A stretch of DNA of 64,000 nt, taken from positions 480,996,001 to 481,060,000 of the forward strand of contig CM097882.1 in assembly GCA_044892505.1 (NCBI GenBank), given 5' to 3'. The notes beneath the pieces are model-generated. The model did no database searches, was not told the origin of the DNA, and worked only from the letters and a program-made list of their open reading frames with translations. Below are positions 23,730 to 42,028 of this stretch, piece after piece. Source of the stretch: Schmidtea nova. Taxonomy: Eukaryota. The translations under genes and the position numbers were made by a program. Numbering within the stretch: the first letter of the stretch is position 1; the number at the start of each line of letters is the position of its first letter.

Positions 23730-26700
23730 CTATACCATCATTATCGTCTTTTCCTCGTATCGTTCTTCATCTTCTATTTGTTTCCAGAATTCTTTACCTT
23801 TCGTTCTTCTTTGAAATTCTTTCTGTATCTCCTCTGGTATTTCTATTCCTAGTTTCATGATTTTGATATCTGGCCATTGTATGGCTATCGCTTTGTTTCT
23901 CTTTCTGTATCTCCAATATACTATTATGCTTGTCGTCAGTATTCCATATGCTATTAATATTCCTATACTCATTAATCCTATTATTGTTTTTCCACTGTTT
24001 GTTTCTCTTTTATTCTGGTTCGCTTTTATCTCATTTTGGGTTTGAGCCTCTGGCTTCTTCTCTTTCGGTATTTGACTCTTGACTTTGTTCATTACTTCTT
24101 GGGTAGACCAATGGCGATTTAGTAGTTGTTTGACGTTATTTTCTTTTGTCTGGTTTTCTACGTTTCCTGGTTCGATCTGTTGTTGTGGTTTCTCTGAGAT
24201 CTGATATAATCCGCATTCTGGTTTTTCTGAACCTTTTCTGGTGAAGGTACATATCGCGTATGTCCTATTTACTTCCATTTTCTTTAATTCGACTTTTTCT
24301 TTATTCTTTATTTCTTTACAGTGGGTTAGGTTGTCTTCTTCCACTTCTGGGTTGTACTTTATCCAACATATTCCTTTAACTGTCTGATCGAGTCCTGTTA
24401 ATGTCAGAGTTCTTTCTGTCTTGGTTAACCTTTCTTCGTCGAAGTTCAGTGTCTCTCCTTTTTGGAATGTTTTGCAATGCTCTATTCCGGGTTGATCCTC
24501 TTGGGTTCCTTTCTCCCATATACATATACTTCCTTCTTCGTTCATTTGTATTTCTTGTATTTCGATTTCCTTGTTTGTTCGTGATTCGTCGCTTGTCTGA
24601 ACTTGGTATTCCTTCCTTGGTTCGTTGTATGTTCCCCAGCATAGTTTGTTGCTACTTGTTTTCCTTATTGTTATGGCCATTTGTTCTATTATTATTCCTT
24701 TATCGATACGTTTGGACATTGCTAGTATTAATGCTATGCATACGCACTCCTGTTGGGGTGATATTCTTTCTCTCGTTTTATTGGTGCTTCTCTCCCCTTC
24801 TCTTGGTTTGTTCGTTGTATTTTCCTTCTGAGTTGCTGGTCGATCTATTGTGGTTTTGATCTCTTTCTTTGTTGGTTTTACTTTGTACCACTCAAGTCTG
24901 GGCGTTTCATATTTTTGACATACGACTGTCTTAGGTAGCCCTGACTTCTTTTCCTTTCCTATTATACATATCCGATGCATGATTCCTCTGTCCATCCCTT
25001 CTATTCGTACTATATCCTGGTCGGATTTTCTGATTATGCATTTTAGTGGGTTATCTTTCCCAATTGGTTCATCCTCTCTATTCCAGCATATTTTCTCGAC
25101 CTCCTGGACATTTACTATTTTTATCCCTGCTTGTAGATTTGTTGCTTCTTCCCTATTGATTAATGTTAGTATTATTGTTAGACCCAACCATTTTGAACTC
25201 TGCGGTAGGCTTCTGGTTCGCCTTTCATATTTTTTCTCTTCTCCTTTAATCTCTTTTATTTCCTTGTCTTTGTTGTTTATTCCTAGTTTTCCGCTTTTTG
25301 CTTCTTTCTTTTTTGGTTCTTCTCGTGCTTCTTCTTCTAGCATTTCCACTCCATGGCTTGTACTATCTCTATTTGTCCATTGGGTTACCGATTTCTTTGG
25401 GTTTATCTTGCGTATCCATATAGCTGATAACGCGATTATTACTGGTATGGTCGCTGTTAATATTCCTAAGCCAATTAGTTCTTTAATTTCTTTATTCTCG
25501 TCTGTTTGTATAGATTCGCTTTGGTTGAACATTATTCCGTATTGTCCCTTTAGTTTTCTCATTAATTGTTCCCGTTCCTCTTGCTTTCTTTTGACTTCCT
25601 TGATAACTTCTTCAGGTGTCCATTTTGCTTGAGGGTCGGTTATTGTTTTTTCTGCGTCCATTTGTTCATTCGTTTGGCTTAGTTCCTTGAATTCGAGTTT
25701 CCTTGTTATTCCTTTTGATGTTGCGTTTGCTGGTGTATAGTAGGTTTCGCATCTTTCTTGTTGATTTCCTAGTGCGTCCGTTTTTTCTATTGTACATACT
25801 TCATACTCGCTATTAAATTGTAGTTTTTCGATCTTGATTTCTTTATTTGTTTTTCTGCACTCTCTTGATTGTCTTCTTATATGTTTCTGAACTCTTATCC
25901 AACATATTTCTAATGTTTTATTCTCTATTTTCCATAATGTTAGAGTTGCTGATGTCTTTCTCTCGGGTTTTGTCGTAACTTCCTGGCTTATTGGTTGTTT
26001 ATTGTTTTTAAAGGTAGTGGTGTACTTCGGTTTTCCTTTGTTTTGTTGTTTTCTTTTATTTTTCCGTGTTAACGTTTTGGTTCTTGTTCCGGATGAAGTT
26101 GTATATATTCCGCATTCTAGGTCGTTTATCGTTATCTGATCATCTTTCTTTACCAAACATATTTCATAGGTTTGTTTACTTTCTAGACCTTTTATTTGTA
26201 TCATTGTTGCTCCTGTGCTTGTTTGACATTGTGGTGTCTTTCTTTCATTCGTTTCTTTTTCGTACTTCCTCCAGCATACTCCTTTCACATTTGGTTCTAT
26301 CTCTTTTATTTCTAATGTTATGTTTACTTTCTGCTTGATTTGTTTATTTCTCTTCCTCGTTCTCCTTCTGAACTTTATTACTTCTCCAGGTTGGAATGTT
26401 TTACATTTTATGGTACCTTTCTTGTTCCTCTCTTTTTCAAGTAGGCATAGTTTGTACGTCTTATCTGCTTTTACTTTGGATACTTTAATTACTTTATTCG
26501 TTGTTGGTTTTCGACTTTTCCTTATTTCATTTACGCCGATTTCCTCGTTATTCCTCGCCCAACATTTTATGTTAGTATTCTGTGTATCTTCTACTTCTGT
26601 TATTGTCATAGTTTCAATTTCTATTCCTTCCTCTAATCGTTTTATTATTATTAGTATGAGTGCTAAGCATAATACTTCCATTTGGTAAGACACTCTTTCG

Positions 26701-29700
26701 GTTTCGTTTGTGGCAATTCTTGTTTCGGGCCTCTTTATTGTAATTCGTAGGGTTGGTGTTGTTTGCTTATCTATTGCCTGGGGTTTTTTGTTTTCTGTTC
26801 CCTGTGTCTCTGTTCTTCCACATTTTCCGATGATGTAATCTCCTTTGGGTGACTGTTGTATTGTCATGGCTGCTTTAGGTGTTTGGTATTTTGCACATGC
26901 GATTGTGTTGTGTGATCTTGGATGCTTTTGTTTCCTAACGGTGCATATTTTGTACCAGGTATCTAGATCTAGGTCGTTGATCTCTATGATCTCTTGCTCG
27001 TGTTTTGAGATTCTGCAATCCATCGGACTATTTTGTTCCGTGATTTTGTCCTTTTTTGACCAACATACTCGTTCGATTCCTTTCGCGTTTTTTATTTGTA
27101 TTATTGCCCTTTCTTCACATGTCATTCCTTGACTTGGATTAATTAACGTTAAAATCACTGTTAGTAATAGTAATTCTGGTTTGAAGAATGGTTTTATGGT
27201 TGATTTATAACCTGTTCTTTGGGTGTCATTTTTATCTCCTTGGTCGTTTGTTCCTTGTTCTCTCTCTTCATCTCTTTGTTTTTCGTCTTCACCTTTCTTT
27301 CCTTCCTTGTCTCGTTTCTTGTCTTTTCTCTCGTTTTCCTCTTTATCGGGTGGTTCGTGATCGCTTAAATTTTCTGAGTTGTTACCGTCGTCACTATCTG
27401 TGTTGTCATCTCCCCCTGGCTCGTCGAAAATGTCGTCCTCGACATTGATTTCTTCTATTAGTTTCGCATATGCTAATGTCGTTAGATTACTTGCCTCAAA
27501 CTCTTGTGTTTCTACCTGTTCTGGTATTACTTTGTTAGTGGATTTATATTCTAAGATTTCCTTTTTGGCCTTGATCCAATTGTTGATGTATGTCTTCATC
27601 AATTCTTTCCATTTGCCTGTGTATTTTTCTTCTTTCGGGCTGGTTGTGATTCTTAGATCCTTTCTTTCCATAAACATCTTCAATATCTCTGGCCATTTAT
27701 ACGTTATTAAGGCACTTCTTATACACCAGTTTTGGTTATGTTCTGTAAATTTATTAATCCTGAATGCTGGTTCGTTAGTATTAGGATTTATCCACGTAAG
27801 TATTGATTCTGTTAGTTCGACGTTGTTCATCATTGCTAGTACACTGGGTTTCTTGACCGTATCAGTTAGGTGATCTATTTCTTCCTGATTTGGGACGGTT
27901 TTAATGAAATTGACCATTTCCCAATTGTGTGTTAATAATGCTACATCCAATATCGAATTATCTTTATCTGTCTTTCCTGTAAGTCCTGCACCTGCTTTGT
28001 ATAGTTCTTCTAATACCTTTGTTTTCGTTTTGGCCCTTGCTGCAAATACCATAAGTGTATCTCCTTTCTCGTCTATCATATTCATATTGCTTCCGCAATT
28101 TAGCATTACTCTTGCAATTTCCATTACTTTCCTATCTTTGCCATTTCGTAGAGCTCTATGTATGGGCATTATTCCGTCTTTTGGTAATAGGAATGTTACT
28201 GGCATCTCCTTTTTTATTATTACTATGTCGTTACCATTGTATGTTCCTTTTGCGTATGCGTGTACTTTTTCAACTAATGCGCCGAGTATTTCCAGTGCAT
28301 GTTTACTATTCTCGAATTCCGGTAACAATTCTTTTGCTTTTTCTTGTATCGCATCTAGTCTAGCTTGGTATGGTGCTTCTGCTTTGAAGAGTGGTGTGAG
28401 TTTCTTGTTACTTTCTCTTTCTTTTTTCTCTAAAACCTGTTTGCATTTTTCGGGATGGTTTAAGATTTTTACTAATTCCTCATATTCGCTTACTATTGTC
28501 TGGTATTTCTCGTTAAAATTGTTTATGTCTTTGTATGTTATTAGTTTATCAAGTGGTTTCGCACACCATTTCCTAATCTTATTGAATAAGGCTTCCTTCT
28601 CTTTATCGAATTTGTATTCTTCTTCATTCTTTGTGATGTTTATGTTTCCTCTGCCTAATAAGGTTAGTAATGTCTTCTGATCACAAGTAAATTTCAAAAG
28701 GTATCTTAACAGTGCGTTTTGTCCTTCGCTGTATACTTCGTTTATGTCTAAGACCCATGTATCATCTTCTGGTCGTTTCCATTTGATTAACTTACGGATC
28801 GTGTTGCATTTACCAATTTTGATTGCCTCTTTGATAATGTCTCCTTTAACTAGTTCGTCTATCTCCCAAGTGGAGTTAGCTATTATGTATTTCAGCATTG
28901 GTTGGTGAGAACTCCATATTACGTGATTTAGCACTGTTTTGTCCTCTCTATCTCGTTCTGTCCAACTGAAATGAGCTTTTATCAATAGATCTATCATTTC
29001 TTTATCTGCTTGGTGGATTGCGGCTGTCATTAATGGAGTTTCTTGTTCACGATTCCCAACGTCTAGGTTTTGGTTTGTTTCTTTTGCGATTTTCAAGAAT
29101 TCTTTTGCTCTTTCAATGTTTTTACACTGAATCGCATTATGTAAGGCCGGTTGTCCTCCTACATCTTTCAATAAGAGTATTTCCGGAATTTTTTCCAATA
29201 AATCCGAAATAATTGGTTCGGTTGGCAATCCTTGTGCGTAACGGCTAATTATATGTCTAATGTCCCTTGATATGCCTACTTCGTCTTTAACATGCCATCT
29301 TCCCATTATTTCTCTCGCCTTCAATATGATCTCTTTATTTCTGATTTCTTTTTGCCTTATTTCTGCTTTGTCGTCTTCAGTTGCATTAGCTCTGAGCATA
29401 TTTATCCTGGCTGTTTGTGATCTGGTTATTATTCGATTTTCTGGTGTTGTAGTTATCGTTTTAGGCACTTTCTTACATCTGCAGGTGTTTACATATATGG
29501 GTCGTACTAAGGGTCGATTTATTAGCTTAACTTTGACATTGTTGTCCTTTTTGTATATAATTTCATAAGGTCCTCTTCCAGGTCTTTGGAGTTTCTTAAC
29601 AGTTCCGGGTATTATTTCGGGAGTTTCTATTATCACCCAATCTCCTGGTTTTAGATCGTTCGCTTTAACATTTTTCTTCTGGTCGTGTAAGTCCTTATAA

Positions 29701-32700
29701 CTTTCCTGATAAAATTTAATGTTGAGTTCTGCTGTTTTCCATATTTCTTGCATTCTTTCTTTGAATTTGGTTACGTAGTCGTCATCTTCCATATATTGCG
29801 ATAATGGTGGCTGATACTCTAAATCTATGGGCATGTTGCATTCTCTTCCATACATAAGTTGAAATGGGCTTAGTTTTGTTGCTGCATGTATCGACATTCG
29901 GTATGCCATTAAACATAATTTTATGTATTCATCCCAGTCAGTTTGGTGTCTGCTGACGTAGTTTGATAACATTCTAATCAATGTGCCGTTGAATCGCTCC
30001 GTTTGTCCATTCGTTTGCGGGTGATATGGTGAAGTTCTCAATTTTGCTATTCTGAAGTAGTTTGTCACCTCGTTCAATAATTCACTCATAAAATTAGTTC
30101 CTTGGTCTGTGAGTATTTGTTTTGGAGTTCCGTATCTGCAACATATTTCTTCCACTAAAATTTTTGCTACAGTTTTTGCTTTTTGGTCTTGCATGGCAAA
30201 TGCTTCCGGGAATTTTGTTAGATAATCTGTTATCACTAATATATAAATATTTCCGTTTAGACTTTCTGGTAATGGTCCTATTACGTCCATTGCTATAGTT
30301 GTCATTGGCTCTGCTGGTATCGGCATTGGTTGTAGCGGGTTCTTCCATTTCTTCCCACTATCCTTTCTGGTTGCGCAAGTTAGACAATTTTTAATCCATT
30401 CTTTTATATCTTCTTCCATTGTTCGCCAATAATATTTTTGTCTCATACGATTTATTGTCTTCTTCTCGGACATATGGCCTCCTAATTTCCCATCATGGTA
30501 CTGGATCATTATCTCTTTCCTTCTGTTTTCCGGTAAACACATCAATCTCTTTTCTCCGTCTTGTATTAATAACCATCCTTTATTTATTATGTAGCGATGT
30601 TGATATTTTCCTATATGTTCCTTTAATTCCTTATTCTCTTTGAATACCTCCATATTTCGAGACGTTAGGAACTCTATGATCTGTCCCAATTCTTTGTCTT
30701 CCTGTTGATCTTTCTTTAACTCACTAAAATCTAAATCCTCCGCTATTAATACACAAATTCGTTGTACATCAGGATCGGTTAATTCTGGAAATGTCAGTCT
30801 TGACATACAATCTGCATTCGCATTCGCTCTTCCTGATTTAAATTTTATGTCTGGTGAGTACTCCTGTAACTGCATCGCCCATCGCATTAATCTACTGGAT
30901 GTTTCCTTGTGCTGTCCTAACCATACAAGCGGTTGGTGATCTGTTGTTATGCAGATGATGTGTCCCCATAATAAATATTTAAAATGTTTTATTGCTAGTA
31001 TAATCGCTAATGCTTCCCGTTCTGTTACTGAGTAATTTTTCTCATGCTTTTTGAATGTCCGGCTATAATATCCGATTACACGTTCTTTTCCTTCGTCATC
31101 GTATTGTCCTAATACGGCTCCTGCTGCATATCCGCTTGCATCTGTTGCAAGTAGGAATGGTTTCTTGAAGTCTGGGTGTACCAATATAGGTGCGGTTATC
31201 AGTTTATCTCTTAATGTCTCAAAGGCTGTTTGTTGTTCATCTCCCCATATGAATGATACATCTTTCTTTACCAGTTCCTGTATAGGCTTTGCGATTCCGG
31301 CGTAATCTTTTATAAACTTTCTATAGTATCCACATAATCCGAGAAATTCTTGTATTTGGGTTATTGTTTTTGGTACTGGGCATTCTTTTACTTTGTCGAT
31401 ATTTCTAGGATCCGGTTCTTTTCCTTTTGCTGACACTATATGTCCTAAAAATGTTACTTTCTCTTTCGCCCAATCACACTTGGATGGCTTGAGTTTTAAC
31501 TTCCATTGTCTAAGCCTAACGAATACATCTCGAATATCCTGTATGTGTTGTTCGAATGTACTAGAGTAAATCAATAAGTCGTCGATGTAGACCATGCACT
31601 GCTTTATTCCGTGGGTGACGAAATTCATGCATCTCTGAAATGATGCTGGTGCGTTCGTCAATCCAAATGGCATTTTCCGAAATTGATATAAATCTCTCCC
31701 GATGGTAAAGGCAGTTTTCTCCTTATCTTCTTCCTTCATTTTTATTTGCCAATATCCGCTTTTCAGATCTAACGACGTAAAATATGCTGCTCCTTGTAAT
31801 GTTAGTAGCATCTCGTTGATGTCTGGTAATGGGTAAGTATCTCGTTTTGTCACTGTATTCAATCTTCGGTAATCTATACAGAATCTCTGTGTTCCGTCTT
31901 TCTTCTTCACCATTACCACTGGAAATTGCCAGGGTGAACAACTTGGTTCGATTACTTCTGCATCCAACATTTTCTTCACTTCTGCTTCTGCTACTGCTTT
32001 CTGTGCTTCCGCTAATTTGTACGGCCTTAATGCAATTGGTGTTTCATCTGTTAATGGTATTGTATGTAGCGTGACATCACATGTTCCTAGATCCAAATCG
32101 GATGCTGCAAATATGTCCTTATACTCCATCAGCAGTTTTTCTAACTGTTTCTTTTGGTCCTTATTTAATAATTCACTATCAATATTCCAGGTTGGTTCTT
32201 TATCTTTCTCTGCCCCTTCTATTGGTAGTTCGATATCCATCATTGGGGTTAATTTACCTAATCTTTCGTTTTCGTATATTATTTTGTCCTCTTCATCGAA
32301 GTTTACTACGTTTATTGGGATTTCTCCATCATCGTTTATGTTAACTAGTCCTCTTGCCATTGGCAACGCTTTTCTTTTCTCGAATCTCTTACTTGGTTCG
32401 AAAATCATATCGCCTTGGATTGTCGGATCTATTTTTACGTAACATATTTTCTCCTTTCTTGCGGGTATTATCATTTGCTTTGAACTTGTCACTTTAGCTT
32501 CTATTGCGCATATTTGTCCTGTGCGATCTTTTAGTCTCATTGTTCCGAGATCGATTACAATTTCTTTAAATAATGCTGGCATCAAATCTGTTCCGATGAT
32601 GCAAGGTACGCTTAACGCTGGTATAACTGCTACGTATGTATCGATTTCCGTGTTTAAGTGGCGTATTTTTACCCACCATCTTCCTGCTACTTCTACAACT

Positions 32701-35700
32701 TCTTTGCTACATGCAATTACATGGACGTTTGTCCTTTCTATCTCCCGTCTTTGCTCTTGTGGTATCCATTTGATGTCGATGGCAGAAATGTTTGCTCCAG
32801 TGTCGATCATTGCTTCGATTTCTCTTCCGTTAATTTCTATTGTCGTGGTTAGTACTGGACCTGTGTTTGATGACATTACTGCGATCGTGTGTGTATCTCC
32901 TTGTGGATCCACACTTCTACATCTTCTCATTTTATAATCTTCTGGTATCATGGGGTATACATTTGTCATTGGCATCATTTGCATCGTGCTATTTTTTCCT
33001 CCTTGTAGTGGTTCTTGATACATGGTTGGTGGAGGTGCGTAACATTTCCATGCGTCGGCTGGATTCTTTTCGATGTATTGTGGTGCTTGGTTCTTATACA
33101 CTTGTCCTCCCTTATAGTCGTCATCGTCGTCATCGTCGTCACTCGAATCATTTTGGGTTTTATATCCTTTCATCCTCTCCCATAAACCTTTTCTTTCTCT
33201 CTTGAGCTGTTGTCTTGCTTGTTCGTCATTCATTATCTTTTTAAATTTTCGTCCTACTTCTTCATCTGTTCCTTTCATTTTTGCTAATATCTTTAGGAGT
33301 CTTTTTATTCGGTGGATATCTTTTGAGTGACCGTGTAACACCATCGTTTTCGCAAGGAATGGTAAAAATCCTACTACCATTTTCCAATTCACTTTCTTTT
33401 CTCTCTTGTAAATATCGAAACACGCTAACATTTGCGTTATTATCACTCTGACGATTTGTATTATTAATATAACCCCAAGTATTCCGGCCATCATTTGTCC
33501 GAATATCAGGAATCTTCCCCACATTGCTTTCATCATATTTTCGGTGGCTTTCTTGAAATGTGCTGGTGACAACAACAGTTCATAATTCGGTCCTTCTCGA
33601 TAATTCGTTCCTCCCGTTATCGTTACGATATTTGACAGTAATGCTTCTCTTCTCGCTGGAAATAATATATTCTGCCTTGCTGCTTCTAAATCTTTCGGAC
33701 TATATATTCCGTTGTTTGAGACATCTACGTCGCTGAATTGCCTATCCTTTGACAACTGCATTAATTCGAATTCTCTTGGTGCTATCACTTCGGATCTTCC
33801 TGGGAACATAACCCATTTACCATCTGGTTTTTGATAAAGTGGTCCATACGCATTACTACAGTTGAATGGATTTGGTTCAAACCCTGGTGGATTTATGATT
33901 CTCGTCACCGGTTGAACGTATCGTACTTTTCCTTTGTAATCGATTTCTAACTCATTTGTACAGGTTCCAGGTTTCAACTGTGTTGTTGCTGCTAGCGACG
34001 CGTGTGTTTTTTCGCAAATGTATACGTACATTGCTTCTCCGACCACTCTTCCGAAATGTCCTTCTCTCAGTGGTAATAATGGCATCGCGCTATCTGGATT
34101 CGTAATCGCTACGGCCAACTTTGTCTTTAATATTTCTCGATTTAGTATACAATCATTATTTATCAAATCGTAGTACACTTTTTGTAATGAGGCTTGTCCT
34201 CTATGGAATAGGAAATCCATTTTATTATTCACATACAAGTGTAGTTTGATATCCATTGTGTCGATTTTGGGTTTCGCATTTGGCACTTCTTGTTTTGACA
34301 CATATATTCCTGGATAATTCGTTTCGTATACCGTTGTACTACACTTAAGGGTTGCTTTCCCTTTTATGAATCTCATTCCCACATCTTGATTTGTGGTTAT
34401 CAACACTGTTGGTGTGGCTCTCATCTCTATCCGTTTTTCTCTATGATCTGGTTTCAGTTGTCTTTTATTCTCTAAAGCTTCCTTGAGATGCTTTGCTCTC
34501 GCTTTGTCGTCATCGTCTTCTTCCTGAAACGTTTTTCCTTGGATTTCGTCGAACTGTGCTCCTTGTAGCAGTTGTAATTGACATTCGTTCACCTTTGGTT
34601 TGTATACTAATGTTGACATTCCTGTTTGACACATGCTCCTGTCGATTTTACACATGGATAACGTTTTCATTTCTCCCGTTGTTGGTTCGAAGAATGCTTC
34701 ATAGCTTTTCAATTCGACTATATACGTATCCATCACCACTAAGTTGGTTGCGGGTACTCCGAATATTGGGTAGGTTTCTCCTTGACAATATCCTTCTCCT
34801 CCCGTAATCCGTCCTGCTACATAGTATGTCTGTTGCATCATCATTCCTGGCTTTCCTCTTATCTTGATTTTATCTCTTGTTGTTACTTCTCCATGTTTAA
34901 ACAGTGCTTCGCAGTCTTCTCCTTGTAACACGATTGGTTCTCTTTCCGTTCCTGGCATGACAATTGCTGAATAATGTCCTCTCCCGCAGTAGAATGCGAA
35001 TCTCGTCTTCTGCACTTTACATTCATTCACCATTGTCTTTATGAGTTCTGCTTCTTGATACACGTGGTACCATTGTTCCTTTTTAATCTTTTGCAACTCT
35101 ACCGGAGTTGCATCTTTGCATTGCTCCGTACCTCTCAATGAATACTTTTCTCCTAACTTCATTTGGTCACAATCAAACACTTCGAATGCTGTTGCGCTAT
35201 CGGTGCTAATCATCCAAATCAACATCATCATTATTATAGCACTCAGATTCATTGATGACTTTGCGTTTCCTGTTCCTGCTTGTTCTTTTCCTAACTCTTC
35301 CAATATTTTTTCGAATTTCTTTTTCATATTCTTCGCTTGCGTTTTCTTCTGGTTAGTTTTTATAAATGTTTCCCATCCTCCTTTGTTAATGACGTAGGGT
35401 TCTATTTCTCTAGCTATAATCTTTGCGGTATTTTTTATATGTCTCTCTAATGCAGTAGGTTTTGGTCGACCTCTACTCAATGTCAACAGATTGTATATCG
35501 TGTATGCAATGGCTATTACGTATTTGTTATCCGTTTCCGCTCCTTCTGTCAGTTTCTTTATTAACATAGTGGTCCCTTGCCAGTCTAAATGGTTTGACTT
35601 CGTTTTTTCTTTTATGAATTCCGGTAAGATGGGTGCAATTGCGCTGTGTAATGACTTCGCCTTTTCGCTTATCTCAGTTATCCGCCAGTATTTTCTCAAT

Positions 35701-38700
35701 TCCGGATCAATTATTGCCAATATCTCCATTATCGTTTTCGATATCCATTCCTCCCCTTGACATATTGGTGTTGTCTCTTTTTCTTTCATTTCCGCAATTT
35801 TATTTAATTTCCTTAAACATAATTCCCATTGATCTTGTCTCTTTTCGTCTTTATTTCTGATAACTATATTCGCTGGGTCTGTCTTGGGTCTACCTCTAGG
35901 TCGTCTATCCATTCCTGTCCCTGTTTCCACAAATCTTGTTGCCTGTCCGGTTTCTTCCGTGACATCTCTTGGTTCGTTAGCTCTTTCCTCTAACCATCTT
36001 TCCATTTCTTGCGTTAATTGTACATTTTCGACATTCGTTCCTCTCGTTTCGTCTTCTGTCAAATCGTTTACTTCTTCTATTATTATTTCTTCTTCGACTT
36101 CTGCTTCTCCGGTGTTGGTTACTTGTATTGTCGTAGGTAGTTCTTGTATTCTTTCGAAAATGTTATCGTCCTTTTCCTTTGTTAATTCGGTTAATTCTTC
36201 TATCATATCGTCGCTGTCTGTCAATATTTCGTCCACGTCATATGGTTGTGGTGGAGTCCTTTCTCCATTCCCTCTGGGTGTTGTCTCAGATCGTCTCGAA
36301 CTTGTCCCTGGTGTTAATGCTGATTTCATCGGACTCGGCGTACTTATACTTCCGTGTGGTTTACAGTTTTCTTCTTTACGTTTCAATGGTTGACCCGCTA
36401 TTGCTTCTACTGTCAAGGTATTCATGAGGTCTAATTGTGCTGGTGTTATTCCGATTTCCAAACTGTTATCTAATGATCGTCCTTGGTGTTGTAAATGGAA
36501 TGGTGGTTCGTATCTCAATTTCTTTTTAATATCTCGAATTTTTTCTGCAATTCCTACCCAAAGCTCTTCCTTATCCTTGTTTGGATATATTATTCTTAAA
36601 TGTACTTTTTGTGGAATTTCTTGCGAGAATTCTTGATTTCTCCATTTCCTGATTACGTGGTCTAGTTGTTCCGGACACCACTCGTTAACTCTTTTATATT
36701 CCGCGATTGCTTTTGCTACTTTACGCAAGCATGTTATATCTTCCCCATTTACCACGAAAAAATCTGCGAGGCCTTTTATTAATTTGGTTTTTAATATTTC
36801 GACAAATTCTTCCGTTTTTTGCTTTTCCCTTTCTAACCACATGGCCGCTGTTTCTGGTCCATCTAGGTCTATTGGCGTAGCTTTCCTTGTTACCATGCAA
36901 ACCCTTCTTATCTCTGGTTCGCAGTCATCTTCAATTCCTCTTTTATATTCTTCTTCATATTCCCCTTCTTTTGGTTCCCAACATTTTCCTTTCTCGTTCC
37001 ATTGTTTTTCTACGGGTGTTCGTATTCGTCTGTTGAGATTGAGTTCTTCTAATACATTTTCCCACTCTGGCCAAATTCGCCAATTTCGATAAATTTCTAC
37101 TATTTGTTGTAATTTACGCATAACTTCTTTCCGTCGTTCCCGTTCTCTTTTCTCATCTTTAGCAGTTTCCCTTGGTGTATCGTCCATTCTGCTAACGTGG
37201 ATGGTTTGGTGATTATCCCATATACCGATTTTATATAGTCGTCTCTCATCGTGATCCCATAATACATGTTCGTTATATTGTATGATTATGTCGTCTTCCC
37301 ATTCGTCTTCTGGTTCTCTTTGCACTAGTGTCTCGTTGATGACATTTATTAATTCTTTAATGGTGCAGTCCGCTACCACTTCGATTTCTTTGGTGTCTTC
37401 ATTAGGTAACTCTACTGAAATTTTTAGATCTGTTATTTTCCCTTGTCTGAACATTGTTTTTCCCATTTTTGCGATTAATTTATCGTGTGAGATTTGTGAC
37501 CATCTCGTGTGACTTGTGTCACGTATGCACTCAATACATCGTTTCAATTTCTCGTATTCGTTTCTCATTAACTCTTTTCTATGTTTTTTGACTTGTGGTA
37601 TGATTTGTTCTATCAGGGAATTTAGATTCTTTCGCAAAACTCGTTCTTTCTCGTATTCTAACCGTGGTTTTATTCTCCTTTCGAAGCACGCGTTTGCTTC
37701 CCTTGCAACTTCTTGTAGGTTCTCTTCTTCTTTTTCATCACATATTGATAACAAGGTTATTTCTCCTGGCCATATACCTGTTTCTACTAAGTGAGTTCTT
37801 TTCTTTACGAGTCTATTCTGCGAATAGATGAATTTGTTTTTGTATGAGCTCCCTAGTCTATCTTCTACCCATCTGTAGATATCGTCTGTAAATGGAGTTT
37901 TGATCCAGATTCTTGGTGTAGACGTATTTATTATTATTGAGATGGTGTAATTGAGGAGTGGTTCCTCTATTAATTTCCCTACGTATCGATTCAACATGTC
38001 TACCTCCCGGTCTTGTAACCATTCTTTGTAGTTCATTTGTAGTAATGCTTTCATGAATTTCCGGTATTGTTTCTTGTCCATGAACTCTTCGTTATATATT
38101 ACCTCTAGCGAGTTATCTAGTAATTTCTGGATTTCATCTACTTTTATCTGTATAGGTTCTGAGGTCTTTATTACTTCTCTCTCTTTATTTTCGTCTTCGG
38201 ATTCATTTAATATGTCTCCTGCTAGGCTACTGATGTCACTATCTTCTTCTTCATCGGAAAACTCTCTGGTGGTATTTCTTAACATATTAATATGTGCTAT
38301 TTGGTTCGTTTCTCCTTGTATATTCTCCGTTGGTTCTGGTTCGTTTTTGTCAATTTCTGGTGTTGGTTCACTCTTGTCCTCTATTACTTCGACTTTTTCC
38401 ATTTTCTTTCCCAACTCGTCTATCTCTTTTAAACGTCTTCTTATCATTTTCCCTTCAAATATTCGCCTGATTCGGGTTTCGTGACGTATTGGTGGTGGAA
38501 TTTCTTCTGGTTCTATTTCTTTAATTCTCATCACATTTCTTTTTGTCTCTGTTACTCCCACGTTTTCCCATATATCCGTTAATTTCAATTTTACTGATGG
38601 TGCATCTCCTATTTGTAAGAACGCTTCTCTGGGCAGTTTTGTCACTCCTGGAATCATCTGGTTTACTTTATTGAACAGTATTTCCACCTGTTCTTTTGCG

Positions 38701-40679
38701 TTATATTGGAATCGAAACATATGGTCGTTGGGCATGATTACCATCATTCCTTTTTTCCAAATCTCCTTTCCCCCTTCCTGGTTTATCTCGGTTTCCACTT
38801 CCTTTTTTGTTTCTTTTTCTACTTCTTCATCTTTTTGTACTATCTCTTTTCGACTTTCGTTGTCGGCTGGATTTGGGTCTATCGAATTCATTTCCAGTGT
38901 GGTTTCTTTCTCGCGAGTGTCTGTTTGGTTTGTTGCTCTTAGCATGTTAATTCTTAGAGGTTGTCGTTCTCTTTCTTGCTGTTTTTGCTCATCCTCTCTT
39001 TGTATTCTTGCCCATTCCTGAGCGTGTCGTGCTTGACTTTCTCGATTCAATCGTTCGTTTTCGCTTTCTATTTTTCTCATCATGCTAATTTGCTGTTGAT
39101 TGGTTTGCGGATTTCCTCTCGTCGTATTGTTTATAAGTTCCGTCAATCTTTGGACTTCTTGCATTAAATGTATTTCTTTGGGGGTGGTTTTGTTCTGATT
39201 ATTGTTATTATTGACTTGTTGGTTCCCATAATCTGGTCGGTTTACGGTATTTGCTTGATTTCCGTAATTTGGTCGGTTCCCATTACTCTGCCAGTTTCCT
39301 CGTTGATTACTTTTTTGTCCGCAATTTCTTGAATAGTGACCAGGTCGTCCGCAATTAAAACAGATTATTGTAGAACATCTGCTTTCCGAGTGTCCTTTGA
39401 CTCCACATTTTCCGCAATTCAAATTTTGATAGCATTCTTGCTGCCAGTGTCCCAACTTCCCGCATGTTTTACATTGTTTTGTTTGTCTTTGAGGGTTGTA
39501 ATTGTTTTGATTGTCAAAGTTCTGCACTTTGTTTCCTTCATTCCTTCGTTGAGGGGGTGGTCGGTTTAATTGTTGCGAGTTTGGAATATGATTGTTGAGA
39601 TTTACTTCTGGTTCGGTTTGCGCTGTGTCCATGGCTAAATAAATTCTGCCTTCGCTTCCTATCATATGCAATTCAAATCGGTTAGCTGTTTCTAACGCTT
39701 GATCTATGGTTTTGCATCCTTGACATCCTACTTGCGCTCTTATGTCGGGTCTTCTTAGTCCTCCTATGAAGATAGCTGCCATTAACTCCTCGTTTATTGG
39801 ACCTCCATCCTTGAATACCGATTTTGCTAATTTTTTCAGTTCGCTCGCGTATACCGCATTAGATTCATTCATCTTTTGTTTCCTCATTGAGAATTCTATG
39901 AATGCCTCGCTCAGCACTTTATTTATTCCAAATGTTTGTTGGAAAAAGTCTTTTATCGCTGTCCAGCTTGTAGGTGGATTGGTACCATTTTTCGCTTCCA
40001 AATATAGGTCCAATGCACTATCTTTCAAATATAACTGAATTCTGCTTACCGTTGTTTCAGCTTTCCACTTGCATACCTCCACGAATATGCCAAATTCTTT
40101 TAAAAAGGTTTCTAATTTACTCGCATCTCCGTTAAACGGTTCTCCTGAAAATTTATCCTTTATTTCTTCTCTTGGTTCACCCATTTCAATTCCGCTGTCT
40201 TGAGTTATTTTACTTTCGTTTCCTCTTGTTTCTAGTTCGTTGTTATGTTCGTCTTCCGTTTTACTCGAGCTTGAATCGCTTTCTGTTTCTCTTATTACTT
40301 CGTGATCTGATATTATACTTTCGTTATCACTCTCGTTGATTTCTACTTCTTGTTCTACTTCACTCTCTAATTCTTCTATATTATCGTTATTAGTTTCGTC
40401 TACTTCTATTTCACTTGTTTGGCTCTCTTTGGGTTCTGCTTGGTTTTCTTTGTTACTTGAACTGTTGCTTACTACTGACAATTTATCGTTTTCGATAATC
40501 GCTTTATCTCTTATTATTTTCCTCGCTTTACTCCCTTGTGGGTTCTTGTTGTTATCTTTGCCGGCTTTCTGCTTTTTTGTTGTTTTTGTTGTAGTACTAG
40601 TTTTGTCTTTTTTATTGCTCTCGCTGCCGACTTTCTTTTCTGTTGGCTTTATTACGACACTCTTTACTCCTGTTCTCAA
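23730..40679 (-). CDS. gag-env-pol: 5649-aa polyprotein: Gag-UBLs-Bcl-2-like-Env-PR-RT-RNaseH-IN-ankyrin-FN3 membrane modules
   Basis: Capsid ~39660-40150; three CCHC knuckles 39321-39473; protease DTG 32796-32804; RT YIDD 31578-31589; RNase H TDAS ~31140; integrase GH...CLTC, DVIGP, TDQG, ERFN, GPY ~29500-30520. Track start is TTG; first in-frame ATG is at 40184. Confidence 0.96.
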   Translation of the reverse strand: MRTGVKSVVIKPTEKKVGSESNKKDKTSTTTKTTKKQKAGKDNNKNPQGSKARKIIRDKAIIENDKLSVVSNSSSNKENQAEPKESQTSEIEVDETNNDNIEELESEVEQEVEINESDNESIISDHEVIRETESDSSSSKTEDEHNNELETRGNESKITQDSGIEMGEPREEIKDKFSGEPFNGDASKLETFLKEFGIFVEVCKWKAETTVSRIQLYLKDSALDLYLEAKNGTNPPTSWTAIKDFFQQTFGINKVLSEAFIEFSMRKQKMNESNAVYASELKKLAKSVFKDGGPINEELMAAIFIGGLRRPDIRAQVGCQGCKTIDQALETANRFELHMIGSEGRIYLAMDTAQTEPEVNLNNHIPNSQQLNRPPPQRRNEGNKVQNFDNQNNYNPQRQTKQCKTCGKLGHWQQECYQNLNCGKCGVKGHSESRCSTIICFNCGRPGHYSRNCGQKSNQRGNWQSNGNRPNYGNQANTVNRPDYGNQQVNNNNNQNKTTPKEIHLMQEVQRLTELINNTTRGNPQTNQQQISMMRKIESENERLNRESQARHAQEWARIQREDEQKQQERERQPLRINMLRATNQTDTREKETTLEMNSIDPNPADNESRKEIVQKDEEVEKETKKEVETEINQEGGKEIWKKGMMVIMPNDHMFRFQYNAKEQVEILFNKVNQMIPGVTKLPREAFLQIGDAPSVKLKLTDIWENVGVTETKRNVMRIKEIEPEEIPPPIRHETRIRRIFEGKMIRRRLKEIDELGKKMEKVEVIEDKSEPTPEIDKNEPEPTENIQGETNQIAHINMLRNTTREFSDEEEDSDISSLAGDILNESEDENKEREVIKTSEPIQIKVDEIQKLLDNSLEVIYNEEFMDKKQYRKFMKALLQMNYKEWLQDREVDMLNRYVGKLIEEPLLNYTISIIINTSTPRIWIKTPFTDDIYRWVEDRLGSSYKNKFIYSQNRLVKKRTHLVETGIWPGEITLLSICDEKEEENLQEVAREANACFERRIKPRLEYEKERVLRKNLNSLIEQIIPQVKKHRKELMRNEYEKLKRCIECIRDTSHTRWSQISHDKLIAKMGKTMFRQGKITDLKISVELPNEDTKEIEVVADCTIKELINVINETLVQREPEDEWEDDIIIQYNEHVLWDHDERRLYKIGIWDNHQTIHVSRMDDTPRETAKDEKRERERRKEVMRKLQQIVEIYRNWRIWPEWENVLEELNLNRRIRTPVEKQWNEKGKCWEPKEGEYEEEYKRGIEDDCEPEIRRVCMVTRKATPIDLDGPETAAMWLEREKQKTEEFVEILKTKLIKGLADFFVVNGEDITCLRKVAKAIAEYKRVNEWCPEQLDHVIRKWRNQEFSQEIPQKVHLRIIYPNKDKEELWVGIAEKIRDIKKKLRYEPPFHLQHQGRSLDNSLEIGITPAQLDLMNTLTVEAIAGQPLKRKEENCKPHGSISTPSPMKSALTPGTSSRRSETTPRGNGERTPPQPYDVDEILTDSDDMIEELTELTKEKDDNIFERIQELPTTIQVTNTGEAEVEEEIIIEEVNDLTEDETRGTNVENVQLTQEMERWLEERANEPRDVTEETGQATRFVETGTGMDRRPRGRPKTDPANIVIRNKDEKRQDQWELCLRKLNKIAEMKEKETTPICQGEEWISKTIMEILAIIDPELRKYWRITEISEKAKSLHSAIAPILPEFIKEKTKSNHLDWQGTTMLIKKLTEGAETDNKYVIAIAYTIYNLLTLSRGRPKPTALERHIKNTAKIIAREIEPYVINKGGWETFIKTNQKKTQAKNMKKKFEKILEELGKEQAGTGNAKSSMNLSAIIMMMLIWMISTDSATAFEVFDCDQMKLGEKYSLRGTEQCKDATPVELQKIKKEQWYHVYQEAELIKTMVNECKVQKTRFAFYCGRGHYSAIVMPGTEREPIVLQGEDCEALFKHGEVTTRDKIKIRGKPGMMMQQTYYVAGRITGGEGYCQGETYPIFGVPATNLVVMDTYIVELKSYEAFFEPTTGEMKTLSMCKIDRSMCQTGMSTLVYKPKVNECQLQLLQGAQFDEIQGKTFQEEDDDDKARAKHLKEALENKRQLKPDHREKRIEMRATPTVLITTNQDVGMRFIKGKATLKCSTTVYETNYPGIYVSKQEVPNAKPKIDTMDIKLHLYVNNKMDFLFHRGQASLQKVYYDLINNDCILNREILKTKLAVAITNPDSAMPLLPLREGHFGRVVGEAMYVYICEKTHASLAATTQLKPGTCTNELEIDYKGKVRYVQPVTRIINPPGFEPNPFNCSNAYGPLYQKPDGKWVMFPGRSEVIAPREFELMQLSKDRQFSDVDVSNNGIYSPKDLEAARQNILFPARREALLSNIVTITGGTNYREGPNYELLLSPAHFKKATENMMKAMWGRFLIFGQMMAGILGVILIIQIVRVIITQMLACFDIYKREKKVNWKMVVGFLPFLAKTMVLHGHSKDIHRIKRLLKILAKMKGTDEEVGRKFKKIMNDEQARQQLKRERKGLWERMKGYKTQNDSSDDDDDDDDYKGGQVYKNQAPQYIEKNPADAWKCYAPPPTMYQEPLQGGKNSTMQMMPMTNVYPMIPEDYKMRRCRSVDPQGDTHTIAVMSSNTGPVLTTTIEINGREIEAMIDTGANISAIDIKWIPQEQRREIERTNVHVIACSKEVVEVAGRWWVKIRHLNTEIDTYVAVIPALSVPCIIGTDLMPALFKEIVIDLGTMRLKDRTGQICAIEAKVTSSKQMIIPARKEKICYVKIDPTIQGDMIFEPSKRFEKRKALPMARGLVNINDDGEIPINVVNFDEEDKIIYENERLGKLTPMMDIELPIEGAEKDKEPTWNIDSELLNKDQKKQLEKLLMEYKDIFAASDLDLGTCDVTLHTIPLTDETPIALRPYKLAEAQKAVAEAEVKKMLDAEVIEPSCSPWQFPVVMVKKKDGTQRFCIDYRRLNTVTKRDTYPLPDINEMLLTLQGAAYFTSLDLKSGYWQIKMKEEDKEKTAFTIGRDLYQFRKMPFGLTNAPASFQRCMNFVTHGIKQCMVYIDDLLIYSSTFEQHIQDIRDVFVRLRQWKLKLKPSKCDWAKEKVTFLGHIVSAKGKEPDPRNIDKVKECPVPKTITQIQEFLGLCGYYRKFIKDYAGIAKPIQELVKKDVSFIWGDEQQTAFETLRDKLITAPILVHPDFKKPFLLATDASGYAAGAVLGQYDDEGKERVIGYYSRTFKKHEKNYSVTEREALAIILAIKHFKYLLWGHIICITTDHQPLVWLGQHKETSSRLMRWAMQLQEYSPDIKFKSGRANANADCMSRLTFPELTDPDVQRICVLIAEDLDFSELKKDQQEDKELGQIIEFLTSRNMEVFKENKELKEHIGKYQHRYIINKGWLLIQDGEKRLMCLPENRRKEIMIQYHDGKLGGHMSEKKTINRMRQKYYWRTMEEDIKEWIKNCLTCATRKDSGKKWKNPLQPMPIPAEPMTTIAMDVIGPLPESLNGNIYILVITDYLTKFPEAFAMQDQKAKTVAKILVEEICCRYGTPKQILTDQGTNFMSELLNEVTNYFRIAKLRTSPYHPQTNGQTERFNGTLIRMLSNYVSRHQTDWDEYIKLCLMAYRMSIHAATKLSPFQLMYGRECNMPIDLEYQPPLSQYMEDDDYVTKFKERMQEIWKTAELNIKFYQESYKDLHDQKKNVKANDLKPGDWVIIETPEIIPGTVKKLQRPGRGPYEIIYKKDNNVKVKLINRPLVRPIYVNTCRCKKVPKTITTTPENRIITRSQTARINMLRANATEDDKAEIRQKEIRNKEIILKAREIMGRWHVKDEVGISRDIRHIISRYAQGLPTEPIISDLLEKIPEILLLKDVGGQPALHNAIQCKNIERAKEFLKIAKETNQNLDVGNREQETPLMTAAIHQADKEMIDLLIKAHFSWTERDREDKTVLNHVIWSSHQPMLKYIIANSTWEIDELVKGDIIKEAIKIGKCNTIRKLIKWKRPEDDTWVLDINEVYSEGQNALLRYLLKFTCDQKTLLTLLGRGNINITKNEEEYKFDKEKEALFNKIRKWCAKPLDKLITYKDINNFNEKYQTIVSEYEELVKILNHPEKCKQVLEKKERESNKKLTPLFKAEAPYQARLDAIQEKAKELLPEFENSKHALEILGALVEKVHAYAKGTYNGNDIVIIKKEMPVTFLLPKDGIMPIHRALRNGKDRKVMEIARVMLNCGSNMNMIDEKGDTLMVFAARAKTKTKVLEELYKAGAGLTGKTDKDNSILDVALLTHNWEMVNFIKTVPNQEEIDHLTDTVKKPSVLAMMNNVELTESILTWINPNTNEPAFRINKFTEHNQNWCIRSALITYKWPEILKMFMERKDLRITTSPKEEKYTGKWKELMKTYINNWIKAKKEILEYKSTNKVIPEQVETQEFEASNLTTLAYAKLIEEINVEDDIFDEPGGDDNTDSDDGNNSENLSDHEPPDKEENERKDKKRDKEGKKGEDEKQRDEEREQGTNDQGDKNDTQRTGYKSTIKPFFKPELLLLTVILTLINPSQGMTCEERAIIQIKNAKGIERVCWSKKDKITEQNSPMDCRISKHEQEIIEINDLDLDTWYKICTVRKQKHPRSHNTIACAKYQTPKAAMTIQQSPKGDYIIGKCGRTETQGTENKKPQAIDKQTTPTLRITIKRPETRIATNETERVSYQMEVLCLALILIIIKRLEEGIEIETMTITEVEDTQNTNIKCWARNNEEIGVNEIRKSRKPTTNKVIKVSKVKADKTYKLCLLEKERNKKGTIKCKTFQPGEVIKFRRRTRKRNKQIKQKVNITLEIKEIEPNVKGVCWRKYEKETNERKTPQCQTSTGATMIQIKGLESKQTYEICLVKKDDQITINDLECGIYTTSSGTRTKTLTRKNKRKQQNKGKPKYTTTFKNNKQPISQEVTTKPERKTSATLTLWKIENKTLEICWIRVQKHIRRQSRECRKTNKEIKIEKLQFNSEYEVCTIEKTDALGNQQERCETYYTPANATSKGITRKLEFKELSQTNEQMDAEKTITDPQAKWTPEEVIKEVKRKQEEREQLMRKLKGQYGIMFNQSESIQTDENKEIKELIGLGILTATIPVIIALSAIWIRKINPKKSVTQWTNRDSTSHGVEMLEEEAREEPKKKEAKSGKLGINNKDKEIKEIKGEEKKYERRTRSLPQSSKWLGLTIILTLINREEATNLQAGIKIVNVQEVEKICWNREDEPIGKDNPLKCIIRKSDQDIVRIEGMDRGIMHRICIIGKEKKSGLPKTVVCQKYETPRLEWYKVKPTKKEIKTTIDRPATQKENTTNKPREGERSTNKTRERISPQQECVCIALILAMSKRIDKGIIIEQMAITIRKTSSNKLCWGTYNEPRKEYQVQTSDESRTNKEIEIQEIQMNEEGSICIWEKGTQEDQPGIEHCKTFQKGETLNFDEERLTKTERTLTLTGLDQTVKGICWIKYNPEVEEDNLTHCKEIKNKEKVELKKMEVNRTYAICTFTRKGSEKPECGLYQISEKPQQQIEPGNVENQTKENNVKQLLNRHWSTQEVMNKVKSQIPKEKKPEAQTQNEIKANQNKRETNSGKTIIGLMSIGILIAYGILTTSIIVYWRYRKRNKAIAIQWPDIKIMKLGIEIPEEIQKEFQRRTKGKEFWKQIEDEERYEEKTIMMV
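33150..35250 (-). other. env: Envelope glycoprotein domain of the polyprotein, chuvirus (Jingchuvirales)/class III fusion-like
   Basis: Internal signal LSAIIMMMLIWMISTDSATA then FEVFDC; motifs CKVQKTRFAFYCGRGH, GYCQGETY, CILNREILKTKLAVA..NPD, GHFGRVVGEAMYVYIC, GIYSPKDL...ILFP, MWGRFLIFGQMMAGILG (TM 33420-33537); furin-like REKR at 34431-34442. Confidence 0.8.
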
Positions 40680-41288
40680 CGGGATTACTTTTGTATACTC
40701 AATTTTCCTGTCTTATCTCTTATCGTGTTCTGATTCTTCTTGTTTGATTGGTTGGTTTGATTGATTTGTATATCTAAAATACAAAGGTCCTCAACGATAC
40801 ATTATTGTTATCGTCGCGCTTTTATTCCCTTTCTTTCGGGATTACTTTTTACTGGGTTTTCATTATTTCCCAATTCCCAGATTCCCCTTTATTTTTAGTC
40901 TATTTAAATTATCTATAGACTGGTCACAATTATCTATTTATGTCGTAATAATTATCTATACTTTATAAATCAATTACTTTTCCCACAGTTTCCCAAATTA
41001 TTGGTCGCTCGAGCGCTCTAATTCCCTGAGTCTTTCTGACTCGTTTATCATTATTTTATCATTTCTATTCATTATTCCCTGCTAGCAATCGTTTTACTCA
41101 TTCTGCCGGTTGCTCCGGTCAGCCCAAATTTTTACTATTCTCCTTGCATGCTTTACTTAAGGTTGCATAATCAGCTTTACTCGCATTTTCTTAACTACTG
41201 GTGCGCACTACTCTAAATCTCGTCGACGATTTTACTAAGGGTCTATATTCCCTTTGTTACTATATATCCGGATATCTCTATAATTCAC

Positions 41289-41610
41289 TATGGCTCTTCT
41301 GGCCTCAATTTTATATCTCACATGGCTCTATTGGCCTCAATTTAATCTCTCAAATGGCTCTCCTGGCCTCAATTTAATCTCTCAAATGGCTCTATTGGCC
41401 TCAATTTAATCTCTCAAATGGCTCTCTTGGCCTCAATTTAATTTCTCAAATGGCTCTATTGGCCTCAATTTAATCTCTCAAATGGCTCTATTGGCCTCAA
41501 TTTAATCTCTCAAATGGCTCTCTTGGCCTTAATTTAATCTCTCAAATGGCTCTCTTGGCCTTAATTTAATCTCTCCAATGGCTCTCTTGGCCTTAATTTA
41601 ATCTCTCCAT
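41289..41610. repeat. 32-bp tandem array (~10 copies, ATGGCTCTATTGGCCTCAATTTAATCTCTCAA) in the element leader
   Basis: Direct reading; no unique spacers. Confidence 0.93.
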
Positions 41611-41649
41611 AACGCCTAGCTAGGTCATTCAATAAGGCTCATTGGCCTC

Positions 41650-42028
41650 AACCCTTTTTTTCAAGGGACAAACCGCTAATAACCCTTTGTTTCAAGGGAC
41701 AAATCTCATAACCCTTTGTTTCAAGGGACAAATCTCATAACCCTTTGTTTCAAGGGACAAATCTCATAACCCTTTGTTTCAAGGGACAAATCTCATAACC
41801 CTTTGTTTCAAGGGACAAATCTCCTAACCCTTTGTTTCAAGGGACAAATCTCCTAACCCTTTGTTTCAAGGGACAAATCTCCTAACCCTTTGTTTCAAGG
41901 GACAAATCTCCTAACCCTTTGTTTCAAGGGACAAATCTCCTAACCCTTTGTTTCAAGGGACAAATCTCCTAACCCTTTGTTTCAAGGGACAAATCTCCTA
42001 ACCCTTTGTTTCAAGGGACAAATCTCAT
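41650..42028. repeat. 29-bp tandem array (~13 copies, AACCCTTTGTTTCAAGGGACAAATCTCCT) in the element leader
   Basis: Direct reading; each unit holds a CCCTT-N6-AAGGG hairpin. Confidence 0.95.

What the first reader, a model, noticed from the sequence alone, without database searches (positions are those of the whole stretch)
23730..40679. Gag, Env and Pol in one 5649-aa frame, with env between gag and protease
Seen: no stop or frameshift; order Gag-Env-PR-RT-RH-IN. An internal signal peptide (35187-35250) and TM (33420-33537) would put Env in the lumen and return Pol to the cytosol as Env's tail. Established: retroviruses and insect errantiviruses place env 3' of pol on a spliced mRNA and down-regulate Pol by frameshift or readthrough. 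Inference: flavivirus-like co-translational processing by signal peptidase plus the element's protease, giving 1:1:1 stoichiometry unless splicing alters it.
Basis: partly seen in the sequence, partly recalled or inferred. Interest (0 to 1): 0.88.

Follow-up and report, generated by a model that had tools for sequence, protein, structure and literature searches.

The report
Giant flatworm retroelement, one-frame gag-env-pol
A 30-kb jumping-gene copy, likely from a planarian, encodes its capsid, envelope, enzymes and two receptor-like membrane modules in one unbroken reading frame that is predicted to be cut into pieces after translation; the odd gene order is already published, while the receptor-like tail, an envelope swap between families and envelope-less or enzyme-less sister forms were not in the papers found.

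Summary
In detail: one open frame at 23730-40712 (minus strand; 5,484 aa from the first ATG) with Gag, a Monjiviricetes-type fusion protein (Pfam E 1e-71), PR, RT, RH and IN in that order. It lies in an intact 29,775-bp element with 3,114-bp LTRs differing at one base. It is not new in kind. It matches the giant planarian Burro elements, for which PMC6431247 (2019) already reports env in frame between gag and pol, and PMC13524379 reports Gag-Env-Pol elements in flatworms, nematodes and bryozoans. Additions not found in the papers I could read: (1) the frame runs about 1,900 residues past integrase into ankyrin repeats and two signal-FN3-TM modules; (2) env is under strong purifying selection (dN/dS 0.024) and was exchanged between two otherwise 64%-identical families; (3) a sister lineage exists as full, pol-deleted, env-deleted and doubly deleted in-frame forms, joined at microhomologies rather than splice sites. 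New variant of a known kind.

The parts
43302..46415 (-). 5' LTR, 3,114 bp, TG...CA; holds two short ORFs (43770-44378, 44551-45030) with no Pfam family
   Evidence: 1 mismatch to the 3' LTR
16641..19754 (-). 3' LTR
46416..46419 (.). 4-bp target-site duplication AAGT (other copy 16637-16640)
   Evidence: flanks printed
43278..43295 (-). primer-binding site; tRNA-Pro-like (assignment recalled from the MLV PBS, not tested)
   Evidence: sequence
42509..42970 (-). accessory ORF, 153 aa, C-terminal RING finger
   Evidence: PF13920 E 5e-12
41290..42036 (.). two tandem-repeat arrays in the leader (about 32-bp and 29-bp units)
23730..40712 (-). the single polyprotein frame; first ATG at 40184; 165 open codons before it
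39321..40034 (-). Gag: capsid-like region and three CCHC zinc knuckles
36396..38756 (-). region with four ubiquitin-like units read by eye; only one weak Pfam hit
   Evidence: Ubiquitin_4 E 0.042 for 1 of 4 units; alignment
35346..35846 (-). helical domain where Burro has its BCL2-like domain; BH2-like end motif by eye only
   Evidence: conserved 57-87% in four other families and in P0005; no Pfam, PDB or Atlas hit
35187..35252 (-). internal signal-sequence-like segment with small residues at -3/-1
   Evidence: same in P0002 and P0005
33510..35186 (-). Env ectodomain, Monjiviricetes fusion family, 14 Cys, 1 sequon
   Evidence: PF24664 E 1.3e-71
33435..33512 (-). Env transmembrane segment, followed by a second, amphipathic hydrophobic stretch
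32574..32846 (-). aspartic protease (DTG)
   Evidence: RVP E 1.3e-7
32220..32510 (-). dUTPase-like position between PR and RT; weak support
   Evidence: dCTP deaminase E 0.09
31434..31910 (-). reverse transcriptase core (YIDD)
   Evidence: RVT_1 E 3.5e-37
30858..31247 (-). RNase H
30018..30533 (-). integrase zinc finger and core
27450..29402 (-). ankyrin-repeat region after integrase
   Evidence: Ank_2 E 1e-12
25413..27179 (-). membrane module 1: signal-like segment, four FN3-like units (one extra short hydrophobic stretch after unit 1), TM
23913..25190 (-). membrane module 2: a diverged repeat of module 1 with three FN3-like units and TM; families B, C and D have one module only
21779..23158 (-). 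accessory ORF with TRAF zinc fingers and MATH domain
20604..21692 (-). accessory ORF, coiled-coil-like
   Evidence: weak Filament hit E 0.004
19959..20564 (-). accessory ORF, small membrane protein by eye
   Evidence: no Pfam family

Best explanation
This is an intact, very recently inserted 29.8-kb Burro-type Ty3/gypsy element whose one reading frame encodes Gag, accessory domains, a viral-type fusion glycoprotein, protease, RT, RNase H, integrase, ankyrin repeats and two FN3-like membrane modules, and it is likely translated as a single membrane-threaded polyprotein that is predicted to be cut by host signal peptidase on the lumen side and by its own protease on the cytosolic side. Shown: frame, domain order, LTRs, copy number, purifying selection on every part, env exchange between families A and B, and deletion forms in lineage D. 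Inferred: the segment at aa 1811-1824 sends Env into the ER lumen and is cleaved there, leaving the upstream Bcl-2-position domain tail-anchored by the leftover signal; the TM at aa 2390-2415 returns PR-RT-RH-IN-ankyrin to the cytosol; signal-like segments at aa 4501 and 5164 and TMs at aa 5068 and 5566 thread the FN3-like modules as type I surface proteins; the protease frees the cytosolic pieces at I-x-hydrophobic-hydrophobic sites. All parts would be made 1:1, with Gag and Pol concentrated on the membrane that carries Env. Env is likely used for spread between cells and is not needed for copying within a cell, because env-less copies with intact pol exist.
For: Frame and domains. 31 of 131 scored env matches in the own genome (hand count, the window's copy included; the list mixes families A and B) lie in open frames of 5,600 aa or more. 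dN/dS of 10 A copies against the window copy: Env 0.024, RT 0.003, Gag 0.039, FN3 modules 0.18 and 0.30. Protease-site-like motif conserved in A, B, C and D at 531, 577, 797, 1260 (Gag side), 2599 (before PR) and 3759 (after IN), and in A, B and C at 3308 (RH/IN). Signal-like segments conserved in five families; N-side positive, C-side neutral or negative for the three signal segments, C-side positive for the three TMs. Independent ENA/JGI proteins keep Gag-Env-PR (P0002) or Env-PR (P0004) in one frame, and the Bcl-2-position domain before Env (P0005). Env-deleted pol-bearing copies: 3 of 3 examined keep an open frame. Published anatomy of Burro matches.
Against: No RNA or protein data. No SignalP or DeepTMHMM run; the first signal segment is only moderately hydrophobic (Kyte-Doolittle 1.47 over 19 aa, 2.12 over 15 aa). 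The Env TM has positive charge on both sides (+3/+2) and the last TM +3/+4. Extra hydrophobic stretches at aa 4668 and 5312 could act as stop-transfer signals and change the FN3 topology. The protease-like pattern also matches 12 places inside folded domains or membrane segments (21 matches in all), and no such site was seen just before RT. The Env fold was not obtained (pLDDT 30). The 20 fetched A copies were the best DNA matches over the Env/PR junction, so they lean towards an intact junction there.
Confidence: 0.7

Rival explanations
1. The frame is continuous in DNA, but splicing or internal initiation makes separate Gag-, Env- or Pol-rich products, so the ratio is not 1:1.
For: Usual in enveloped retroelements (established knowledge). 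13 T-rich AG sites lie in the ORF and 2 in the leader. The 121-197 open codons before the first Met in every family show some constraint (pN/pS 0.21-0.63), which suggests a non-ATG start or an unseen leader exon.
Against: The genomic deletion forms of lineage D join at short microhomologies, not GT-AG, so they are not copies of spliced RNAs. A suspected cluster of A copies opening just before env proved to be unrelated breaks. No long pyrimidine tract before an AG in the A-rich ORF.
Confidence: 0.2
2. Env is kept for a role inside the cell or for the host (membrane anchoring of assembly, budding into the ER, superinfection block), not for entry into other cells.
For: No particle or transfer data exist here. 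Env-less copies multiply (23 of 24 matches span the env-deletion junction). Only one N-glycosylation sequon in the ectodomain.
Against: The whole 559-aa ectodomain, not only the anchor, is about as constrained as IN and PR. The exchanged block between A and B starts at the predicted signal cleavage site and ends just past the TM, as expected if the ectodomain itself is selected.
Confidence: 0.15
3. The long frame is an assembly chimera or a one-off fusion in this copy.
For: None found; 15 of 20 fetched copies are broken or partly deleted somewhere.
Against: Matching LTRs and TSD; unbroken frames in many loci and in families B and C; relatives from other data sets with Env and PR in frame; published precedent.
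Confidence: 0.01

Closest known systems
Burro1-4 / GYPSM1 giant gypsy elements of Schmidtea mediterranea and the Burro-like element of Dugesia tigrina (PMC6431247, section 7 read)
   Same: About 30 kb; one ORF of about 5,000 aa; Gag with three CCHC; ubiquitin-like and BCL2-position domains; env in frame between gag and pol with hits to mononegavirus fusion proteins; dUTPase-like position; ankyrin repeats; MATH/TRAF present.
   Different: MATH/TRAF is a separate ORF downstream of the polyprotein (inside ORF1 in Burro1, upstream ORF in D. tigrina). No BIR hit; a separate RING ORF instead. The ORF is longer (5,484-5,660 against 4,873 and 5,140 aa) and ends in two signal-FN3-TM modules that this text does not mention. 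Its figure 2A and the original Burro paper could not be seen.
GAG-ENV-POL errantiviruses with HSV/gB-type Env (PMC13524379; passages and supplement rows read)
   Same: Gag-Env-Pol order in flatworms, nematodes and bryozoans; six S. mediterranea elements of 14.5-18 kb; their aligned Env row resembles this Env by eye.
   Different: The main text has no occurrence of 'polyprotein', 'in-frame', 'fibronectin' or 'ankyrin'. It describes recombination of env as ancient, whereas the A/B exchange here is recent.
Atlas virus and related hookworm belpaoviruses (PMC9094657, passages read)
   Same: Env, Gag and Pol in one uninterrupted polyprotein, Env bounded by TM segments and host-protease sites.
   Different: BEL/Pao, not Ty3/gypsy; Env is last, phlebovirus-like class II; 2,828 aa; no return to the cytosol for Pol.
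Flavivirus polyprotein (recalled, not tested)
   Same: Works like it in principle: alternating signal and stop-transfer segments, signal peptidase plus own protease.
   Different: No homology claimed; a retroelement with LTRs and integrase.

Membership tests
Ty3/gypsy (Metaviridae) LTR element | LTRs with TG...CA ends, TSD, PBS | tested here: met
   the tRNA identity of the PBS is recalled
Ty3/gypsy (Metaviridae) LTR element | PR-RT-RH-IN order | tested here: met
Ty3/gypsy (Metaviridae) LTR element | RT groups with Ty3/gypsy rather than BEL/Pao in a tree | not tested
   no reference RTs held; YIDD and three CCHC seen
Burro-type giant elements | internal region up to 25 kb, about 30 kb with LTRs | tested here: met
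   23.5 kb internal, 29,775 bp total
Burro-type giant elements | one ORF of about 5,000 aa with env in frame between gag and pol | tested here: met
Burro-type giant elements | ankyrin and MATH/TRAF cargo | tested here: met
Burro-type giant elements | BCL2-like, ubiquitin-like and dUTPase-like domains | tested here: inconclusive
   right positions and motifs by eye; Ubiquitin_4 E 0.04, dCTP deaminase E 0.09, no Bcl-2 hit; the paper needed HHpred
Burro-type giant elements | sequence kinship to named Burro1-4 | not testable with these tools
   named sequences not held; original paper not held; by-eye likeness to the S. mediterranea Env row
Burro1/GYPSM1 itself | MATH_TRAF and BIR in the element's 4,873-aa ORF1 | tested here: not met
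   MATH is a separate ORF; no BIR family in the Pfam scans of the element's ORFs; so not Burro1 itself
Errantivirus with HSV/gB-type Env | Env homologous to Monjiviricetes/chuvirus-type glycoproteins, bounded by signal and TM | tested here: met
   PF24664 E 1.3e-71
Errantivirus with HSV/gB-type Env | class III five-domain trimeric fold | tested here: inconclusive
   single-sequence model pLDDT 30; no PDB sequence hit
Errantivirus with HSV/gB-type Env | infectious or cell-to-cell spread | not testable with these tools
   needs experiments
Fibronectin type III domain (C-terminal units) | seven-strand FN3 sandwich and FN3 sequence pattern | tested here: met
   model units match FN3 chains at Z 6.4-7.6, rmsd about 3 A over 70-80 residues, nearly all of the top 50 being FN3 proteins (a middling Z); Foldseek top hit fibronectin E 1e-3; a profile of 11 units found 53 proteins, 10 of the 12 best carry PF00041; Atlas leads FNDC4/5/9 at 0.8

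The most novel reading that the evidence does not exclude
Burro-type elements are active one-ORF enveloped viruses of planarians that tune their Gag:Env:Pol ratio not by splicing or frameshift but by keeping complementary genomes (env-only, pol-only, neither) that co-package with full copies, like a segmented retrovirus; env is a swappable entry module that sweeps between families, and the FN3-TM tail is a set of captured receptor mimics released from the same polyprotein.
Probability: 0.2. Interest if true: 0.75.

Novelty: new variant of a known kind. Interest (0 to 1): 0.4.

Why it matters
The gene order itself is in print, so the headline adds little. What this locus adds bears on the question the 2019 review left open, whether Burro env is in use. 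Env is as constrained as integrase, it moved as a block between two families, and it can be dropped without stopping copying, which together point to a role in spread between cells. The pol-less, env-less and doubly deleted forms give a natural genetic dissection of the polyprotein: Gag, protease, ankyrin and the FN3-TM module are the parts kept in all forms examined. The FN3-TM tail, if expressed, would be a retroelement-encoded surface protein in an animal whose body is renewed from stem cells.

Tried and rejected
Env structure from a single sequence failed (pLDDT 30) and was not searched. No PDB sequence relative of Env, of the Bcl-2-position domain or of the FN3 profile; no usable Atlas hit for the Bcl-2-position domain. 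No relative of the FN3 region by word search. No Env relative in phages, viral contigs or metagenome contigs. No RNA holder listed; the three runs laid were contigs of unknown kind, so they say nothing on splicing, and their higher depth over env was not used as evidence. Rejected: that the D deletion forms are retro-copies of spliced RNA (microhomology junctions); that frame lengths near 3,860 aa in A mark an env-starting form (6 copies: 1 stop, 2 frameshifts, 3 with no break upstream); that low pN/pS in pol-deleted D shows selection on these copies themselves (their env interleaves with that of pol-bearing D); that low A/B divergence in env is an RNA-level constraint (synonymous diversity of env within A and within B is ordinary). 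The original Burro paper is not held. Three look-ups of earlier scan findings were empty. Searches behind 'not found in print': and in-text searches; figures and subscription papers were not seen.

Full report
Observation. The frame is real: 23730-40712 on the minus strand, 5,660 codons stop to stop, with a chance of about 1e-178 from base composition. Pfam finds, in order, a weak Retrotrans_gag, zinc knuckles, PF24664 Monjiviricetes_fusion (E 1.3e-71), RVP, RVT_1, RT_RNaseH, integrase and then ankyrin repeats.

The element. The frame sits in a 29,775-bp LTR element (16641-46415): 3,114-bp LTRs with one mismatch, a 4-bp target duplication, a PBS, a RING ORF upstream and TRAF/MATH, coiled-coil and small membrane ORFs downstream. 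These hold ankyrin repeats and two modules of signal-like segment, three or four repeated units and a TM. The seven units share C-W and two further Cys. They are FN3-like by four moderate lines: Atlas leads at 0.8, Foldseek, VIA-align Z up to 7.6 with rmsd about 3 A (on a model of mean pLDDT 42), and a profile search in which 10 of the 12 best of 53 hits carry fn3 (only these 12 were scanned). A direct Pfam scan gave only Fn3_ELFN at E 0.6, and a word search found no relative.

Copies. The own genome holds at least 40 copies at 97-100% identity over the Env/PR junction, from 824 candidates. Of 20 fetched (9 of the 10 best after the window itself, 1 further high match and 10 from the lower part of that list), 5 are unbroken over all 5,649 residues; the others show 35 break points, all different, none in the Bcl2/Env or Env/PR linkers; these copies were chosen by that junction. 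By hand count 31 of 131 scored env matches lie in frames of 5,600 aa or more. So there is no programmed stop or frameshift. Against the window copy, 10 long-frame copies give dN/dS 0.024 for Env, 0.003 RT, 0.026 IN, 0.039 Gag, 0.09-0.10 ankyrin, 0.18 and 0.30 for the FN3 modules (pairs are not independent). Four further families (B 64%, C 80%, D about 70%, E about 59% aa identity) share the layout, B, C and D with a single FN3-TM module; the one E copy fetched is broken once. Proteins from other data sets keep Gag-Env-PR or Env-PR in one frame.

Env exchange. A and B are 98% identical in Env (pS 0.29) but near saturation elsewhere (pS about 0.8); 10 of the 11 B copies fetched could be scored over env and all agree. 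The block runs from about the predicted signal cleavage site to about 35 residues past the TM. Trees join A with B in Env (98/98) but A with C in Ank+FN3 (100, quick tree), and leave A, C, D apart from B in Bcl2+PR (81/92, unresolved inside). Env diversity within A and within B is ordinary, so this is recombination rather than RNA constraint.

Deletion forms. Lineage D occurs with env and pol (L094-L097), without dUTPase-RT-RH-IN (9 of 9 fetched, same 1,007-1,013-codon loss; 62 of 63 junction matches among 150 scored), without the Ubl-Bcl2-Env block (3 of 3 examined; 23 of 24 matches) and without both (12 of the 23, by coordinates; 4 checked). The junctions lie in short microhomologies, not at GT-AG, which fits template jumps during reverse transcription. 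Env of pol-less and pol-bearing copies interleaves on a tree, which suggests co-packaging and means the low pN/pS of pol-less copies (0.038) cannot be credited to them alone. No such forms were seen among the A copies fetched; they were not searched for directly.

Mechanism. Signal-like segments are conserved across five families and charge patterns mostly fit. A motif I-x-hydrophobic-hydrophobic recurs at the borders after Gag, before PR, after PR, between RH and IN and after IN and is largely conserved; its reading as the protease site is inferred, and the loose pattern also hits inside domains. Neither cleavage nor topology nor splicing was tested: no RNA holder was listed and the Env model failed.

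Comparison with what is known. [quoted passage not shown] PMC13524379 (passages; supplement rows) finds Gag-Env-Pol elements with gB-type Env in nematodes, bryozoans and flatworms, six of them in S. mediterranea. PMC9094657 (passages) shows single Gag-Pol-Env polyproteins in hookworm belpaoviruses. PMC8532177 (passages) shows that BURRO1 RNA is expressed when piwi silencing fails. PMC11410931 (passages) mentions Burro only in passing; PMC6952103 (passages) gave no Ty3 consensus to test the motif. The host is likely a dugesiid planarian, inferred from this anatomy. The element is not Burro1 itself (MATH in a separate ORF, no BIR hit). The FN3-TM tail, the recent env exchange and the four-form lineage did not appear in searches, but the original Burro paper, its supplements, figure 2A of the review and Repbase entries were not seen and may cover the tail.

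Verdict. Observation confirmed; headline already published; a new variant of Burro with useful new evidence that its env is in use. Interest 0.4.

Noticed in passing
L061-L063, L078-L108 (lineage D in G000): Four in-frame genomic forms: full (env and RT present in L094-L097), pol-deleted (about 4,118 aa; 62 of 63 matches cover 80-81 of the 81 junction residues), env-deleted (about 3,330 aa; 23 of 24), and both (about 2,323 aa; 12 of those 23 lie about 490 bp from a pol junction, by hand). Junctions at microhomologies.
   Followed up: yes
window 33330-35190 against L042:1514-3400: Env block exchanged between families A and B: 98% aa and pS 0.29 in env against pS about 0.8 in flanks; tree support (A,B) 98/98 for env, (A,C) 100 for Ank+FN3. 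Likely B to A; direction not tested.
   Followed up: yes
window 40185-40712: 121-197 open codons precede the first Met in all families, ending in a conserved D-S-G-I-x-M stretch; pN/pS 0.21-0.63. Non-ATG start or unseen leader exon.
   Followed up: partly
window 43770-45030 and 17109-18369: Two ORFs inside each LTR; ORFs of similar size and place in the LTRs of B, C and D; no Pfam family.
   Followed up: no
window 28380-29400: First ankyrin part is only 37% identical between A and B while IN is 82%: fast change or another exchange.
   Followed up: no
window 11091-13571: An 826-codon minus-strand frame with an RT domain (RVT_1 E 9e-36), LINE-like, between two arrays of a 15-bp repeat (7700-9100, 13437-14341).
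   Followed up: no
P0002, P0004: Relatives from other data sets carry two protease-like domains in tandem after Env.
   Followed up: no
G000:C1:590853644-590954498: Four family-A env matches about 33 kb apart on one strand, perhaps a tandem array of whole elements.
   Followed up: no
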